Below are positions 33,421-50,775 of a DNA stretch of 64,000 bases, piece after piece. The translations under genes and the position numbers were made by a program. The notes under the pieces were generated by a model. That model was not told the DNA's origin. It did no database searches and saw only the letters and a list, made by a program, of their open reading frames with translations. Within the stretch, counting starts at the first letter, position 1, and each line of letters begins with the position of its first letter. This DNA comes from the human T2T-CHM13v2.0 reference genome, Homo sapiens. Location of the stretch: the NCBI GenBank assembly GCA_009914755.4, contig CP068257.2, positions 7,744,001-7,808,000 on the forward strand, given 5' to 3'.

Positions 33421-33962
33421 CATAATATCAAATATTAAAATATATATTATATTATGATATATTAAATATCATACATATGTATCATATATTGTACATTATA
33501 TATTATATATTATACATTTTATATGTTATATATTATATATAATGATACTTATATAATTATACATATAACTACATAATTATATAATTATATACATAATTAT
33601 TTGTATTATATATATAATTATATGATTATATATTTATTTATATTACATATAATTATACAATTATATATATTTTATTATATATAAATTATAATATGTAACA
33701 AAATAGATATATTATATATCATGATATATTAGATACGTTATACATTTTATTATATATAACTATATATTACATTATATATAACTATATATTTTCATCTATA
33801 ATATATATAATGTATATGTATTATATAATATATATTACATAACACATATAATATATATGTAATATGACATGATAAATATTACATATTATGACATATAATA
33901 TATATGACATTATATATTACATGTAAAGCATATTATATAATATATGGTATATGTCATATAAT

Positions 33963-34250
33963 TTTTTTTTAGACAGCGTCTTGTTCTGTTGCACAGGCTG
34001 GAGTACAATGGCGCCATCTTTGCTCACTGCAACATGTGCCTCACATGTTCAAGCGATTGTCCTACCTCAGCCTCCCAGGTAGCTGGGACTACACCGCACT
34101 GGTACTACACCAGCTGCCACCATGCCTAGCTAATTTTTTGGATTTTTAGTAGTGACAGCGTTTCACTGTATTGGACAGGATGGTCTTGATCTCCTCACCT
34201 TGTGATCCTCTTGCCTTGGCCTCCAAAAGTGCTGGGATTACAGGCCTGAG
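33963..34250 (-). mobile_element. Alu, macro-repeat copy 1
   Basis: Reverse complement of the Alu consensus: poly-T start, …gcctcagcctcccaggtagctgggactaca…, ending …cctccaaaagtgctgggattacaggcctgagcc. Confidence 0.9.
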
Positions 34251-36240
34251 CCAAGATACATATTTTCTAAATGAAAAAAAAATTCAAATGTACTCTGCTT
34301 GGTACAAGAATCAAATATTTAAACTGAGGAATAAAACATAACCATGAAACATATTTATAACTGCATATGGAAAATACAGAGGATAATTTTCTAAATAACA
34401 TATTTTGAAAGCATTAAGTAGTAATTTGAAGAGTTCGCATTTCAAAGGCCAGTATGAATATACCTTCAATGCAGCAACATAGGTTCCCCATGAGAAAAAT
34501 CAAAATCAGGGAAAATAAAACCACAAAGGTTCAATCTGTTCTGACCTTTGAAAAACACAGCACAGGCAGTGGCCCTTAGGACCAAGAGCAGGAGATCCCT
34601 AATCTCGTCACCATGGCGATAGGGCATCAACTTTGCAGGGTGAGGTAACAATCCACATTGTGAGGTCCAACTGCTGCCAGGAAGACAGGAGTGCTTTTAC
34701 CTAGACTGAAAGGTCATTGAAGGCTCAGTGTTTTGTTTCAAAAACTGAATCCCAAGCCCACACATTATTATGCTGTGCTTCTTAAAATAAGTTATGAGAT
34801 GGGAAATAGGGCACCCACATATATATATATAGTATACATAATAATATATAGTATAATATACATAATATTTATAAAATACATATAATTTTGTTTTACATCC
34901 TGCATCTATTATATATATTATATGTAATATAATTGATAAAATACATTATATATCTACAATGACATATAATATATATATTTTATGAGATATATATTATATA
35001 TCACATAAATATTACAAGTATAATAAACGTATTAAGTATATAACATACATTATATGTATTATATATGTAACATATGATACATAATAATATATAACAGCAT
35101 ATAATTATATATATACAATATGACATATATATTTTGACATATATATAATATGCATTATATATTATATATATAATAATTTATATGTATAATACATATATTA
35201 AATATATAATATGTATATGTTATATATTATATATAAGCTATGTTACATATTATATATACTATGTTATATATTATATATGTTATATACTATATATGTTATA
35301 TATAATATATGAGTTATATGTAATGTATTATTTAATATAATATAATGTATATCATATATTACATATAATATACACCATATATTATATATAATATATGCAA
35401 TATATGGTATATGATATATATAATACACCAGATGATATATATGATATACAATACATGATATATAATATATAACATATGATACATAATATATATGGTATAT
35501 AATATATATTATATGATATATATTATATATGTTTTATATTATATTATATATAAATATTTTATATTATATATAACTATACAATTATATGTAACTGCATATT
35601 ACATTATATATAAATATATAATATTAACATATATAATGTTACTATATATTTCGTATATTATTATATATATTATATATAACATAATATATATTATATATCA
35701 AAATATGTCACATACATAATGTTAAAATATATATTATATTATGATATATTAAAAAACATATATTATGTAAAATATATTGTATATTATATATTATATATTT
35801 TATATTTAATATATTATATTATATATTATTATACTTAGTTATATAATTATACATATAACTATATAATTATATATAATTATTTATATTATGTATATAATTA
35901 TATGATTATACAAGTATTTATATTACATATAATTATATAATTATGTATACTATGTTATATATAAAATATATATAACATAAAATATATATATTATATATCA
36001 TATATGATAGATATGTTATATATTATATTACATATAACTATATGTTATATAATATATAAATATATATTTTCATCTATGACATATAATAATGTATATGTAT
36101 TATATATTATATACATTATGTAATATATATAATACATATAATATATATGACATGATAAATATATATGACATAATATATATGATAGTTTATATTACATATT
36201 AAACATGTTATATAATTTGTAATATATATCATACATAACT

Positions 36241-36529
36241 TTTTTTTAGACAGAGTCTTGTTCTGTTGCACAGGCAGGAGTACAGTGGCGCCATCTTTGC
36301 TCACTGCAACATCTGCCTCACGGGTTCAAGCGATTGTCCTACCTCAGCCACCCAGGTAGCTGGGACTACACCGCACTGGGACTACACCGGCTGCCACCAT
36401 GCCTAGCTAATTTTTTGGATTTTTAGTAGTGACAGCGTTTCACTGTATTGGCTAGGATGGTCTTGATCTACTCACCTAGTGATCCCCTTCTCTTGGCCTC
36501 CAAAAGTGCTGGGATTACAGGCCTGAGCC
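36241..36529 (-). mobile_element. Alu, macro-repeat copy 2
   Basis: Same Alu as copy 1, including the shared derived variant tagtagtgacagcgtttcac. Confidence 0.9.
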
Positions 36530-47992: not shown

Positions 47993-48281
47993 TTTTTTCA
48001 GACAGAGTCTTCTTCTGTTGCACAGGCTGTAGTGCAATAGCGCCATCTTGGCTCACTCTAATCTCTGCCTCACGGGTTCAAGCGATTTTCCTACCTCAGC
48101 CTCCCAGGTTGCGGGGAATACACCACACTGGGACTACACCAGCTGCCACCATGCCTGGCTAATTATTTGTATTTTTAGTAGAGACAGGGTTTCACTGTAT
48201 TGGCCGGGATGGTCTTGATCTCCTCACCTTTTGATCCTCTTGACTTGGCCTCCCAAAGTGCTCGGATTACAGGTCTGAGCC
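47993..48281 (-). mobile_element. Alu, macro-repeat copy 7 (diverged subfamily)
   Basis: Alu antisense sequence, ancestral-type like copy 6. Confidence 0.85.
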
Positions 48282-49851
48282 AAGATACATATTTTTTAAA
48301 TGAAGAAAAATTTCTAAGGTACTCTGCTTGGTACAATAATCAAATATATAAATTGATTAATAAAACATAACCATGAAACATATTTATAACTGCATATGGA
48401 AAATACAGTGGATAATTTTTTAAATAGGATATTTTGAAAGCATTAACTAGTAATTTGAAGAGTTCGCATTTGACAGGCCAGTATGAACATACGTTGAATG
48501 CAGCAACACAGGTTCCCCATAAGAAAAATCAAAATCAGGGAAAATGAAACCACAAATGTTCAATCTGCTGTGACCTTCGAAAAATTCAGCACAGACAGTG
48601 GCACTTAGGACCAAGGGCAGGAGATCCCTAATCCCATCACCATGGCGATAGGGTATAAACATTCCACGGTGAAGGCACAATCCACATTGTGAGGTCCAAC
48701 TGCTGCCATGCAGACAGTTGTGCTTTTACATGTACAGGAAGGTCATTGAAGGCTCATTGTTCTGTTTCAAAAACTGAATCCCAAGCCCACATATTATTAT
48801 GCTGTGCTTCTTAAAATAAGTTATTAGATTCGAAATAGGACACCCCCAAATATTTATATATATATAATTATAGATAATATAATATAAAATATATATAATA
48901 TATATATTATAGATATTTCCTTTTACATCCTGCATCCTGATATTATATATATTATATATGATATAATATAAAATATATAATTATATATATTGTATAATTA
49001 TATATAATTATATTTATATAATTATATATAATTATATTTATACAATTATATATAATTATATAATAATATATAATATATACTATATACATTATATATTATA
49101 TAATATATAATACATATAGTTTATATTATATATAATATATAATATATATAATATGTAGTATATAATATATACTACATATTATATATAATATATAGTTTAT
49201 ATTATATATAATATATAGTATATAATATATATGATATATATCATATTATAAGTACATTATATTATTATATATTATATTAAACATATAATATATATATTAT
49301 ATAGAATAATATTATATAATATATAATAATATTAAATTAAATAATAATTATAATATATATTATGATATATAATACAATATAATATATAATTACATATCTT
49401 ATAATATATAATATGTAATATATATCATATTTTATATATGTCATATATATTACATATCATATATATTCTATATCATACACAATATATAATATATATCATA
49501 TATGTAATTTATATCATATATAATATATATCATATATAATATATTACATATGAAATACATTATATATAATATATTATATATCACATATTATATATCATAT
49601 ATATAATATAATGACATATTATATGTAATATATATTATATATTATCATATATATTATATATAATATATAAGATATATAACATTTTATATACAATAAATTA
49701 TATATTTCATATAATATATATTCTATGTCATATATATTATATATAATATATGTAAATGACATAGAATATATATTATATATATCATATATTAGGGCATATT
49801 ATATATGATATATATTATATATTACATATGTCATTTATTATATATATATAA

Positions 49852-50150
49852 TTTTTTTTTAGACAGAGTTTTGTTCTGTTTCACAGGCTGGAGTGCAATG
49901 GCGCCATGTTGGCTCACTGCAAACTTTACCTCATGGGTTCCAGCGATTGTCCTGCCTCAGCCTCCCAGGTAGCTGGGACTACACCACACTGGGACTGCAC
50001 CAGCTGCCACCACGCCTGGCTAATTTTTTGTAGTTTTAGTAGAGACAGGGCTTCACTGTATTGGCCAGGATGGTCTTGATCTCCTCACCTTGTGATCCTC
50101 TTGCTTTGGCCTCCGAAATTGCTGGGATTACAGGCCTGAGCCAAGATCCA
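49852..50150 (-). mobile_element. Alu, macro-repeat copy 8 (diverged subfamily)
   Basis: Alu antisense sequence, ancestral-type like copy 6. Confidence 0.85.
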
Positions 50151-50775
50151 TATTTTTTAAATGAAGAAAAATTTCAAAGGTACTCTGCTTGGTACAATAA
50201 TCAAATATGTATATTGAGGAATAAAACATAACCATGAAACATATTTATAACTGCATATGGAAAATACAGAGGATAATTTTTTAAATAACAAATTTTGAAA
50301 GCATTAACTAATAATTTGAAAAGATCGCATTTGACAGGCCAGTATGAACATACCTCGATTGGAGGAACACAGGTTCCCCTTAAGAAAAATCAAAATCAGG
50401 GAAAATGAACCCACAAAAGTTCAATCTGCTCTGACCTTTGAAAAACTCAGCCCAGACAGTGGCACTTATGACCAAGGGCAGGAGATTCTAATCCCATCAC
50501 CATGGCGATAGGGCATAAACATTCCTGGGTGAAGGCACAATCCACATTGTGAGGTCCTACTGCTGCCATGCAGACAGGTGTGCTTTTACATGGACCGGAA
50601 GTTCATTGAAGGCTCAGTGTTTTTTTTCAAAAACTGAATCCCAAACCCACACATTATTATGCTGTGCTTCTTAAAATAAGTTATGAGATGGGAAATAGGG
50701 CACCCCCAAATATAGCCAATAGTGAGAGTTTCAAATTGAGGAAAGGCACAACTGATATGTTGAGAATAAACAGAG

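What the first reader, a model, noticed from the sequence alone, without database searches (positions are those of the whole stretch)
33421..50720. Previously untyped composite macrosatellite: 8 tandem copies of an Alu + unique-core + AT-rich-core unit
A 1.9-2.9 kb unit is repeated 8 times head-to-tail. Each unit is a minus-strand Alu, a ~570-bp non-repetitive segment, and a TA-rich core of variable length. Tandem amplification of an Alu together with flanking unique DNA is unusual, because Alus are normally dispersed rather than tandem. Here the Alu must have inserted once and then been co-amplified with its neighbourhood. The unit spacings (2279, 2530, 2270, 2920, 2170, 1860, 1860 bp) differ only because of the AT-rich cores. 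A multi-kilobase tandem array with >97% identity among copies 1-5 is a strong candidate for a copy-number-variable macrosatellite/VNTR, sitting directly next to a >33-kb AT-rich satellite.
Basis: seen in the sequence. Interest (0 to 1): 0.65.

Follow-up and report, generated by a model that had tools for sequence, protein, structure and literature searches.

The report
Known human satellite HSat1B (DYZ2-like) array
The eight-copy Alu + core + AT-rich tandem repeat is real, but it is a small, diverged array of the long-known human satellite HSat1B (the DYZ2 / "HSATI" 2.4-kb repeat first described in 1984), so it is ordinary rather than a new macrosatellite.

Summary
The structure is confirmed. 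Eight head-to-tail units occupy 33419-50714. Each has an AT-rich tract of 0.5-2.0 kb, a minus-strand Alu lacking its first 12 nt, and a ~570-bp core. Start spacings are 2277, 2529, 2270, 2919, 2173, 1861 and 1861 bp, and all length variation lies in the AT tracts. Identity of the Alu+core block is 87-96%, not >97%.

It is not untyped. The anatomy matches HSat1B/DYZ2 as published. A 40-nt probe designed on the 1984 Y-chromosomal sequence spans the core/Alu junction and matches unit 8 at 40/40. Human Y DYZ2 copies, recovered as contaminants in bacterial assemblies, collapse to a 2,420-bp unit with the ACATACG junction. They align end to end with all eight Alu+core blocks at 88-94%. All copies share the Alu truncation point, a 15-nt Alu insertion and 38 derived Alu substitutions, so there was one Alu insertion that was then co-amplified.

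The array is not Yq12 itself. It lies between a 33-kb HSat1A array and a duplicon carrying an EIF3F processed pseudogene, laid out like the 5' half of FAM230C. That points to a chr21/chr13 pericentromeric or short-arm locus (inferred).

Verdict: already known, low interest.

The parts
1..33418 (+). HSat1A (RepeatMasker 'SAR') satellite. It has a 42-bp AT-rich monomer and ~800 copies, all in one orientation. Mixed higher-order periodicities occur at 125, 167, 293, 335 and 502 bp.
   Evidence: TRF and the k-mer spacing analysis. A 29-nt monomer motif has 773 matches (<=6 mismatches) up to 33374 and none beyond 33418 on either strand. The reverse-complemented monomer reads as the A (17 nt) + B (25 nt) units of classical satellite I (own knowledge; described in PMC9909926).
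33419..34825 (-). HSat1B unit 1. It is truncated on the left: partial AT tract 33419-33955, Alu 33956-34253, HSATI core 34254-34825.
   Evidence: The partial AT tract aligns with the Alu-proximal ~520 nt of the other AT tracts. Contig L022 from another sample is 98.2% identical to 34733-35809.
34826..37099 (-). HSat1B unit 2: AT tract 34826-36232, Alu 36233-36530, core 36531-37099.
   Evidence: The Y-probe 40-mer matches at 37/40.
37100..39626 (-). HSat1B unit 3: AT tract 37100-38761, Alu 38762-39055, core 39056-39626.
   Evidence: Contig L019 is 95.6% identical to 36977-38025.
39627..41901 (-). HSat1B unit 4: AT tract 39627-41031, Alu 41032-41329, core 41330-41901.
41902..44819 (-). HSat1B unit 5, which has the longest AT tract: AT tract 41902-43950, Alu 43951-44248, core 44249-44819.
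   Evidence: This unit is the closest to Y DYZ2, at 93.4-94.0%.
44820..46993 (-). HSat1B unit 6, the first unit of the older sub-block: AT tract 44820-46123, Alu 46124-46421, core 46422-46993.
46994..48854 (-). HSat1B unit 7, with an 1861-bp period: AT tract 46994-47984, Alu 47985-48282, core 48283-48854.
   Evidence: The AT tract folds better than shuffled sequence, z = -6.6.
48855..50714 (-). HSat1B unit 8, the last unit, which abuts the unique flank: AT tract 48855-49845, Alu 49846-50143, core 50144-50714.
   Evidence: The 40-nt 'Y-chrom' padlock target matches 40/40 at 50119-50158. Contigs L020 and L023 from other samples are 99.5% identical across the right boundary.
50715..54900 (.). Non-satellite flank. 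By eye it holds an L1 3' fragment at ~50.8-52.0 kb. Dispersed full-length Alus lie at 52015-52293 (-) and 53983-54246 (+).
   Evidence: Sequence read. The Alus were mapped at 82% identity, starting at consensus positions 1-5, unlike the array Alus. The L1 call is by eye only and was not tool-tested.
54930..56000 (+). EIF3F processed pseudogene with frameshifts, an in-frame stop and a poly(A) tail at ~55990.
   Evidence: A PDB sequence search matches human eIF3f residues 60-183 at E = 9e-55. Pfam finds JAB (PF01398) and MitMem_reg (PF13012). Its position relative to the first HSATI segment fits EIF3FP2 within FAM230C, or EIF3FP1 within AP003900.1 (PMC5906017).

Best explanation
This is a small, diverged array of human satellite HSat1B. 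HSat1B is the classical 'male-specific 2.47-kb satellite I unit containing one Alu', also known as DYZ2 or RepeatMasker HSATI + Alu + AT-rich simple repeat. The array sits at the edge of an HSat1A array and abuts the FAM230C/EIF3FP-type pericentromeric duplicon. It is most likely on chr21p11, or alternatively at the chr13 pericentromere.

How it arose:
- Shown: one Alu retrotransposed into an AT-rich/HSATI progenitor. All copies here and on the Y share the same truncation, the same internal 15-nt insertion and 38 derived substitutions.
- Inferred from established satellite biology and the Yq12 literature: the tripartite unit was then amplified head to tail by unequal exchange between sister chromatids or homologues.
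- Inferred: the hairpin-prone (TA)n-like tracts changed length independently by slippage or unequal exchange. That explains why the unit varies from 1.86 to 2.92 kb while Alu+core stays at 865-870 bp.
- Shown: the array has two layers. Units 6-8 lie next to the unique flank, are mutually ~9-10% diverged and retain ancestral Alu bases. Units 1-5 lie next to HSat1A, are 4-7% diverged and share derived states with the Y copies.

This layering fits the published pattern of older, less homogenised units at array edges. The array has no coding function. Like other HSat1B it is expected to be heterochromatic, methylated, structurally unstable DNA.
For: [quoted passage not shown] Here the Alus are 19-22% diverged.
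- HSATI segment length: RepeatMasker tables report ~561-567 bp for full-length HSATI segments next to AluSc8. Here the core is ~570 bp.
- Junction probe: the 40-nt padlock target taken from Frommer 1984 (PMC2212658) spans the core/Alu junction. It matches unit 8 at 40/40 and four other units at 37/40, with 0 matches expected by chance.
- Y reference copies: a 28-mer from the junction retrieves 18 human-contaminant contigs from bacterial assemblies. They are 99.4-100% identical to each other. One collapses to exactly 2,420 bp and carries ACATACG at the HSATI/AT junction. Both features are reported for the Y DYZ2 consensus.
- Homology to Y copies: all eight window blocks align to these contigs over the full 870 bp at 88-94%.
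- Single origin and rooting.
- Independent support for the locus: L020 and L023 are 99.5% identical across the right boundary.
- Flank: an EIF3F pseudogene lies where EIF3FP1/2 lie relative to HSATI in FAM230C and AP003900.1.
- Published distribution: HSat1B occurs on acrocentric short arms.
Against: - No RepeatMasker/Dfam run or alignment to a reference genome was possible. The HSATI name and the chromosomal assignment therefore rest on indirect sequence tests and the literature.
- The window differs from the GRCh38 FAM230C allele described in PMC5906017. That allele has 3 units, a first AT tract of ~400 bp, and is followed by non-satellite DNA. The exact locus is therefore not pinned down.
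- The amplification mechanism (unequal exchange) is inferred from the pattern, not demonstrated.
- Unit lengths of 1.86-2.92 kb deviate from the canonical 2.4 kb.
Confidence: 0.93

Rival explanations
1. A genuinely new, previously untyped composite macrosatellite. On this view it was formed locally and independently of known satellites.
For: The unit length of 1.86-2.92 kb and the 87-96% inter-unit identity differ from the canonical Yq12 array. No Rfam family matches at gathering threshold.
Against: The Alu+core blocks align end to end with Y DYZ2 copies at 88-94%. A 1984-derived probe matches the diagnostic junction at 40/40. The Alu truncation, the 15-nt insertion and 38 derived substitutions are shared with Y copies. 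Literature already records this element on autosomal pericentromeres and acrocentric arms.
Confidence: 0.02
2. A piece of the Yq12 DYZ2 heterochromatin itself, for example a peripheral diverged block.
For: It belongs to the same family. Peripheral Yq12 units are reported to be more diverged and closer to acrocentric copies.
Against: - Window units are 6-12% from the Y consensus and carry none of the Y base at 29 Y-private columns.
- Unit lengths are not 2,413/2,420 bp.
- The neighbours are HSat1A and an EIF3F-pseudogene duplicon rather than DYZ1/HSat3.
- T2T-Y reports Yq12 as almost entirely alternating DYZ1 and DYZ2 blocks with the vast majority of repeat units over 98% identical.
Confidence: 0.03
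3. One of the 22q11.2 LCR22 AT-rich / PATRR translocation-breakpoint elements (TBTA-type HSATI/Alu/AT repeats).
For: LCR22 elements are built from the same HSATI/Alu/AT motif. The AT tracts here are hairpin-prone, with z = -6.6.
Against: - LCR22 copies carry ~155-bp Alu stubs and the 3' half of FAM230C. Here all Alus are ~290 bp, and the flank is the 5'-half type with the EIF3F pseudogene, which LCR22 copies lack.
- Inverted repeats are only 70-80% complementary, so there is no near-perfect palindrome.
- A 33-kb HSat1A array adjoins the array.
Confidence: 0.02
4. An assembly artefact, in which a tandem array was mis-expanded or collapsed by the assembler.
For: Satellite regions are error-prone. 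Units 6-7 and 7-8 have identical 1861-bp spacing.
Against: Every unit is distinct from every other by 4-12% in Alu+core. Units 6, 7 and 8 differ by ~9% despite equal length. Independent contigs from other samples reproduce unit 1, unit 8 and the right junction at 98-99.5%.
Confidence: 0.03

Closest known systems
HSat1B / DYZ2 (RepeatMasker-Dfam HSATI DF0000210 + Alu + AT-rich simple repeat; Frommer et al. 1984; Babcock et al. 2007 '2.4-kb tripartite element'; T2T cenSat 'hsat1B')
   Same: It has the same three parts in the same order and orientation, the same Alu/HSATI junction and the same 15-nt Alu insertion. Identity is 88-94% over the 870-bp Alu+HSATI block. The arrangement is head-to-tail tandem, and the AT tract is variable.
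   Different: The array has only 8 units, which are 4-12% diverged from each other, versus >98% identity on Yq12. Unit lengths are 1.86-2.92 kb instead of 2.41-2.42 kb. It is flanked by HSat1A and a duplicon rather than DYZ1/HSat3. Units 6-8 keep ancestral Alu bases that are lost in the Y copies.
HSATI/Alu/AT-rich triple repeat in intron 1 of FAM230C (chr13) and the AP003900.1/EIF3FP1 paralogue (chr21) (Delihas 2018, PMC5906017)
   Same: The motif is the same, and it abuts the same kind of flank. An EIF3F processed pseudogene lies on the opposite strand, ~3-4 kb from the first HSATI segment. A ~1000-bp AT tract occurs in one unit.
   Different: GRCh38 FAM230C has 3 units plus a fragment. Its first AT tract is ~400 bp, its third Alu is a 152-bp stub, and it is followed by the FAM230C 3' half. 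The window has 8 units with full Alus, followed by HSat1A.
TBTA / PATRR22 AT-rich translocation-breakpoint elements in LCR22 (22q11.2)
   Same: They derive from the same HSATI/Alu/AT-rich motif and have hairpin-prone AT tracts.
   Different: No near-perfect palindrome is present here. The Alus are full rather than 155-bp stubs, and the flank differs.
HSat1A (SAR, 42-bp classical satellite I)
   Same: It comes from the same AT-rich density fraction, is physically adjacent here, and both occur on acrocentric chromosomes.
   Different: The sequences are unrelated. The 42-mer motif is absent from the AT tracts of the composite units, and the boundary at 33418/33419 is sharp.
Other kilobase-unit tandem repeats and composite satellites (D4Z4, DXZ4, SST1, LSau-betaSat composites; own knowledge)
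   Same: They have kilobase-scale units repeated in tandem, often with embedded transposable-element fragments, and are prone to copy-number change.
   Different: There is no sequence relationship. The window unit has no coding potential, unlike D4Z4 (DUX4).

Membership tests
HSat1B (DYZ2-type tripartite satellite) | Unit made of an AT-rich simple-repeat tract, a 5'-truncated Alu and an HSATI segment, in that order. | tested here: met
   All 8 units have an AT tract (89-92% A+T), a minus-strand Alu starting at consensus position 13, and a ~570-bp core.
HSat1B (DYZ2-type tripartite satellite) | Sequence homology of the Alu+HSATI block to DYZ2. | tested here: met
   Identity is 88-94% over the full 870 bp to Y-derived contaminant contigs. 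Those contigs show the 2,420-bp unit and the ACATACG junction.
HSat1B (DYZ2-type tripartite satellite) | The specific Alu/HSATI junction of the 1984 male-specific 2.47-kb unit. | tested here: met
   The 40-nt padlock target from PMC2212658 matches at 40/40 in unit 8 and at 37/40 in four other units. None are expected by chance.
HSat1B (DYZ2-type tripartite satellite) | Alu subunit ~20% diverged from consensus and monophyletic with other HSat1B Alus. | tested here: met
   Derived sites make up 19.1-22.3% of positions. 38 derived states and a 15-nt insertion are shared with Y copies.
HSat1B (DYZ2-type tripartite satellite) | Head-to-tail tandem arrays with a ~2.4-2.5 kb period. | tested here: met
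   The arrangement is tandem. Periods are 1861-2919 bp with a median of ~2270 bp, and the deviation is entirely in the AT tract.
HSat1B (DYZ2-type tripartite satellite) | RepeatMasker/Dfam HSATI (DF0000210) annotation of the core. | not testable with these tools
   No Dfam or RepeatMasker is available here. This is supported only indirectly, by segment length and homology to DYZ2.
HSat1B (DYZ2-type tripartite satellite) | Location on Yq12, acrocentric short arms or autosomal pericentromeres. | tested here: inconclusive
   The adjacent HSat1A array and the EIF3FP/FAM230C-type flank fit chr21 or chr13. No reference mapping was possible.
Yq12 DYZ2 array proper | Units >98% identical, 2,413/2,420 bp long, alternating with DYZ1 (HSat3). 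| tested here: not met
   Inter-unit identity is 87-96%. Lengths are 1861-2919 bp. The neighbours are HSat1A and unique DNA. 29 Y-private columns are absent.
PATRR (palindromic AT-rich repeat, translocation hotspot) | Near-perfect palindrome of several hundred bp. | tested here: not met
   The best inverted repeats are 92-132 nt arms at 70-80% complementarity. There is general hairpin propensity only, z = -6.6.
Macrosatellite / kilobase-unit VNTR | Kilobase-scale unit in tandem with polymorphic copy number in the population. | not testable with these tools
   Unit size and tandem arrangement are met. Copy-number polymorphism needs population long-read assemblies. The literature reports low allelic identity in chr21/chr15 HSat1B.

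The most novel reading that the evidence does not exclude
The flank-side units 7-8 keep ancestral Alu bases that every Y copy and units 1-5 have lost, and a paralogous locus (L021) carries a single unit at the same flank junction. This autosomal duplicon edge may therefore preserve the oldest surviving HSat1B lineage. On that reading it is near the birthplace of the satellite, and the 14-Mb Yq12 DYZ2 is a derived offshoot. That polarity is opposite to the Y-to-acrocentric seeding suggested in the T2T-Y paper, but it agrees with Babcock 2007.
Probability: 0.3. Interest if true: 0.3.

Novelty: already known. Interest (0 to 1): 0.1.

Why it matters
The finding matters little as a discovery. The element has been known since 1984, is named in Dfam/RepeatMasker, and is annotated in T2T assemblies.

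It has some secondary value:
- It shows a clean HSat1A | HSat1B | duplicon boundary.
- It shows a two-layer array whose flank-side units look ancestral relative to the Y copies. This bears on the debated direction of HSat1B spread between Y and autosomes.
- It belongs to the repeat family that seeded the 22q11 PATRR translocation hotspots.
- HSat1B on acrocentric arms is reported to be highly variable between haplotypes, so copy number here probably varies. That would be one more instance of a known property.

Tried and rejected
- Rfam scan of 33000-64000 at gathering threshold gave no hit. The diverged Alus do not reach the 7SL/SRP thresholds, so this was uninformative.
- Frommer 1984 (PMC318713) and Babcock 2007 (PMC1832092) are not held in the library. 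I relied on papers that quote them and on the padlock probe derived from the 1984 sequence.
- I looked for HSat1B FISH primer sequences in the T2T-Y preprint. None are in the main text.
- I tested whether the AT tracts derive from the neighbouring 42-bp HSat1A. The monomer motif does not occur beyond 33418 even at 6/29 mismatches, so this was rejected.
- I tested for a PATRR-like perfect palindrome. Only 70-80% complementary arms were found, as expected of (TA)n-rich DNA, so this was rejected.
- I checked for coding potential. A recurrent 61-77-codon ORF lies on the minus strand of the HSATI core, without an ATG start, and has no Pfam match. I treated it as a chance ORF.
- I considered dating the units from their divergence. 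I did not, because acrocentric short-arm mutation rates are reported to be ~10-fold above the genome average, which makes any clock unreliable.
- Global alignment of the AT tracts gives 88-94% identity against 83% for shuffled controls. This is weak contrast because of low complexity. Homology of the AT tracts therefore rests more on shared landmarks than on the percentages.

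
Full report
**Observation**

The array exists as described. The repeat finder finds eight in-register copies of both the Alu and the core segment between 33.9 and 50.7 kb. Extracting the GC-richer block (Alu + core) from each unit gives 865-870 bp every time.

The Alu is genuine. It lies on the minus strand and aligns to Alu consensus positions 13-280 in all eight units at 77-79% identity.

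One stated number is wrong. The Alu+core blocks of units 1-5 are 92.6-96.3% identical to each other, not >97%. Units 6-8 are only 87-92% identical to anything, including each other.

The left neighbour is a 33.4-kb array of a 42-bp AT-rich monomer.

**Anatomy and boundaries**

The array begins abruptly at 33419-33421 inside an AT tract. The 537-bp leader aligns with the Alu-proximal end of the other AT tracts. The 42-bp satellite motif is absent to the right of 33418 even when 6 of 29 mismatches are allowed. The two satellites are therefore unrelated in sequence and meet at a sharp junction.

The array ends at 50714, exactly at the end of the eighth core, and is followed by ordinary interspersed-repeat-rich DNA. 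In total it holds eight Alu+core blocks, seven complete AT tracts and one partial tract.

The AT tracts are hairpin-prone. A 991-nt tract folds at -177 kcal/mol against -148 ± 4.6 kcal/mol for dinucleotide shuffles, z = -6.6. Their inverted repeats are only 70-80% complementary, so there is no PATRR-like perfect palindrome.

No meaningful ORF is present. A recurrent 61-77-codon ORF in the core has no Pfam match.

**What it is**

The published description of DYZ2/HSat1B fits point for point. [quoted passage not shown] It occurs on Yq12 and, in smaller amounts, on the acrocentric short arms. RepeatMasker tables of related copies list full-length HSATI segments of ~561-567 bp next to an AluSc8 of 278-293 bp and then (TA)n. 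The window has ~570 bp and ~290 bp.

I ran three sequence-level tests.

- *Junction probe.* A padlock probe designed on the 1984 Frommer sequence of the male-specific satellite I unit (PMC2212658) has a 40-nt target spanning the core/Alu junction. It matches unit 8 at 40/40 and four other units at 37/40, with zero matches expected by chance.
- *Recovery of Y copies.* A 28-mer from that junction retrieved 18 short contigs from bacterial genome assemblies. The T2T-Y paper reports exactly this kind of HSat1B contamination. These contigs are 99.4-100% identical to each other. One of them, L001, is a circularly collapsed unit of exactly 2,420 bp and carries ACATACG at the HSATI/AT junction. Both are the published features of the Y DYZ2 consensus.
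- *Homology.* All eight window blocks align to these Y copies over the entire 870 bp at 88-94% identity.

The '570-bp unique core' is therefore the HSATI segment of HSat1B, and the element is not untyped.

**Single Alu insertion**

In an alignment with Alu consensus sequences, all eight window Alus and the Y Alus start at the same truncation point and share a 15-nt insertion in the right arm. They also share 38 derived substitutions, and each is 19-22% diverged from the Alu consensus. It is also the textbook account of this satellite.

**Substructure and relation to the Y**

A neighbour-joining tree gives (u6, u7, u8) versus ((Y copies), (u1-u5)).

- There are 22 fixed differences between units 1-5 and units 6-8, and the Y shares the u1-5 state at 20 of them.
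- At 29 columns no window unit has the Y base.
- Rooting with the Alu consensus shows 11 derived states shared by all of u1-5 and the Y, where one or more of u6-8 (mostly u7 and u8) keep the ancestral base. Only one site shows the opposite pattern.

The flank-side units are therefore the older layer. The HSat1A-side units and the Y copies belong to a derived lineage.

This fits the published 'older units at array edges' pattern. It also fits the Babcock view of autosomal origin with human-specific Y amplification (as summarised). It sits less comfortably with the T2T-Y suggestion that acrocentric copies were seeded from the Y. Homogenisation on the Y could have erased older Y variants, so I do not regard the direction as settled.

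**Not Yq12, not LCR22**

Three things exclude the Yq12 array proper, which is almost entirely alternating DYZ1 and DYZ2 blocks with the vast majority of repeat units over 98% identical:

- 6-12% divergence from the Y consensus;
- variable unit length;
- neighbours that are HSat1A and unique DNA rather than DYZ1/HSat3.

LCR22/TBTA elements carry 155-bp Alu stubs and the 3' half of FAM230C. The window has full Alus and the other type of flank.

**Surroundings and probable locus**

The right flank holds an L1 fragment (by eye), six dispersed full-length Alus at 81-91% identity, and an EIF3F processed pseudogene on the + strand at ~54.93-56.0 kb. The pseudogene matches PDB eIF3f at E = 9e-55 and Pfam JAB and MitMem_reg.

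Delihas 2018 describes exactly this layout in the 5' half of FAM230C on chr13. EIF3FP2 lies on the opposite strand at nt 11274-13870, and the first HSATI starts at nt 17010. A 98%-identical chr21 paralogue, AP003900.1 with EIF3FP1, consists only of that 5' half. Projecting those coordinates onto the window places the pseudogene interval at 53.85-56.45 kb, which contains the observed pseudogene.

The GRCh38 FAM230C allele has 3 units, a first AT tract of ~400 bp, and the FAM230C 3' half after the repeats. The window is therefore not that sequence. A chr21p11 location is my best inference, because there the 5'-half duplicon would run into satellite. A chr13 pericentromeric haplotype is the alternative. 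This is inference, not a mapping.

**Independent copies of the locus**

A metagenome scan with a 24-mer present in seven window units but absent from the Y copies returned five human-contaminant contigs.

- L020 and L023 are 99.5% identical to 49753-50780 and 50609-54114. They reproduce unit 8 and the right boundary.
- L022 is 98.2% identical to 34733-35809.
- L019 is 95.6% identical to 36977-38025, with small indels in the AT tract.
- L021 is a 96.6% paralogue. It has the same flank junction but only one HSATI segment, a 160-bp Alu stub and (TA)13 before unrelated DNA.

The assembly of the array edge is thus corroborated. The flank/HSATI junction predates a segmental duplication. AT-tract sequence differs between samples or paralogues.

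**Mechanism**

- *Shown:* a single Alu insertion, co-amplification of a tripartite unit, length change confined to the AT tracts, and a two-layer array.
- *Inferred:* amplification and contraction by unequal sister-chromatid or homologue exchange, as argued for Yq12.
- *Inferred:* AT-tract length change by slippage or hairpin-mediated events.
- *Inferred:* a heterochromatic, methylated state (for DYZ2, for chr15).

I see no evidence for any coding or RNA-structural function.

**Verdict**

However, the element is HSat1B/DYZ2-type satellite, known for four decades and annotated in current assemblies. Novelty: already known. Interest: low.

Noticed in passing
window 1-33418: The HSat1A array is strand-uniform. 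It shows mixed higher-order periodicities at 125, 167, 293, 335 and 502 bp rather than the published 378, 751, 3013, 3474 and 6330-bp HORs. Self-identity is 0.58 at lag 293 but 0.35 at lag 294.
   Followed up: partly
window 44820-50714 versus 33419-44819: The array has two layers. Units 6-8, next to the unique flank, are ~9-12% diverged from everything and retain ancestral Alu bases. Units 1-5 share 11 derived Alu states and 20 of 22 fixed differences with Y DYZ2. This suggests the Y lineage is nested within autosomal diversity.
   Followed up: partly
window 46994-50714: Units 7 and 8 both have a period of exactly 1861 bp, with 991-bp AT tracts, even though their Alu+core blocks differ by ~9% and their AT tracts by ~12%. 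Length is conserved despite sequence divergence, and this is unexplained. FAM230C repeat 2 also has a ~1000-bp AT tract (PMC5906017).
   Followed up: no
window 54930-56000 (+): An EIF3F processed pseudogene with frameshifts and a poly(A) tail. Its position relative to the satellite matches EIF3FP2 in FAM230C (chr13) and EIF3FP1 in AP003900.1 (chr21).
   Followed up: yes
L021 (ERZ1033895 contig, 3817 bp), positions 1-3817: A paralogous locus, 96.6% identical to window 49985-51329. It has the same flank/HSATI junction but only one HSATI segment, a 160-bp Alu stub and (TA)13, followed by unrelated unique DNA. The junction therefore predates a segmental duplication.
   Followed up: partly
L001-L018 (GTDB representative bacterial assemblies, e.g. 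Mycobacterium sp. LZSC01000004.1, Actinomadura cremea BMRF01000089.1): Eighteen bacterial genome assemblies contain contigs that are human Y-chromosomal DYZ2/HSat1B. The contigs are 99.4-100% identical to each other, and several are ~2.4-kb collapsed units. This is human DNA contamination of public microbial genomes, as reported by the T2T-Y paper.
   Followed up: yes
window 34466-34651, 36740-36925, 39267-39452, 44460-44645, 46586-46819, 48447-48680 (all minus strand): A 61-77-codon open frame recurs in the HSATI core of six units. It has no ATG start and no Pfam match, and is probably a chance ORF kept by recent common ancestry.
   Followed up: partly
window 33956-50143 (array Alus) versus 52015-61329 (flank Alus): The eight array Alus are more diverged from consensus (77-79% identity) than the six dispersed Alus in the adjacent flank (81-91%). 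This is consistent with an old insertion and/or the elevated mutation rate reported for acrocentric satellite DNA.
   Followed up: no
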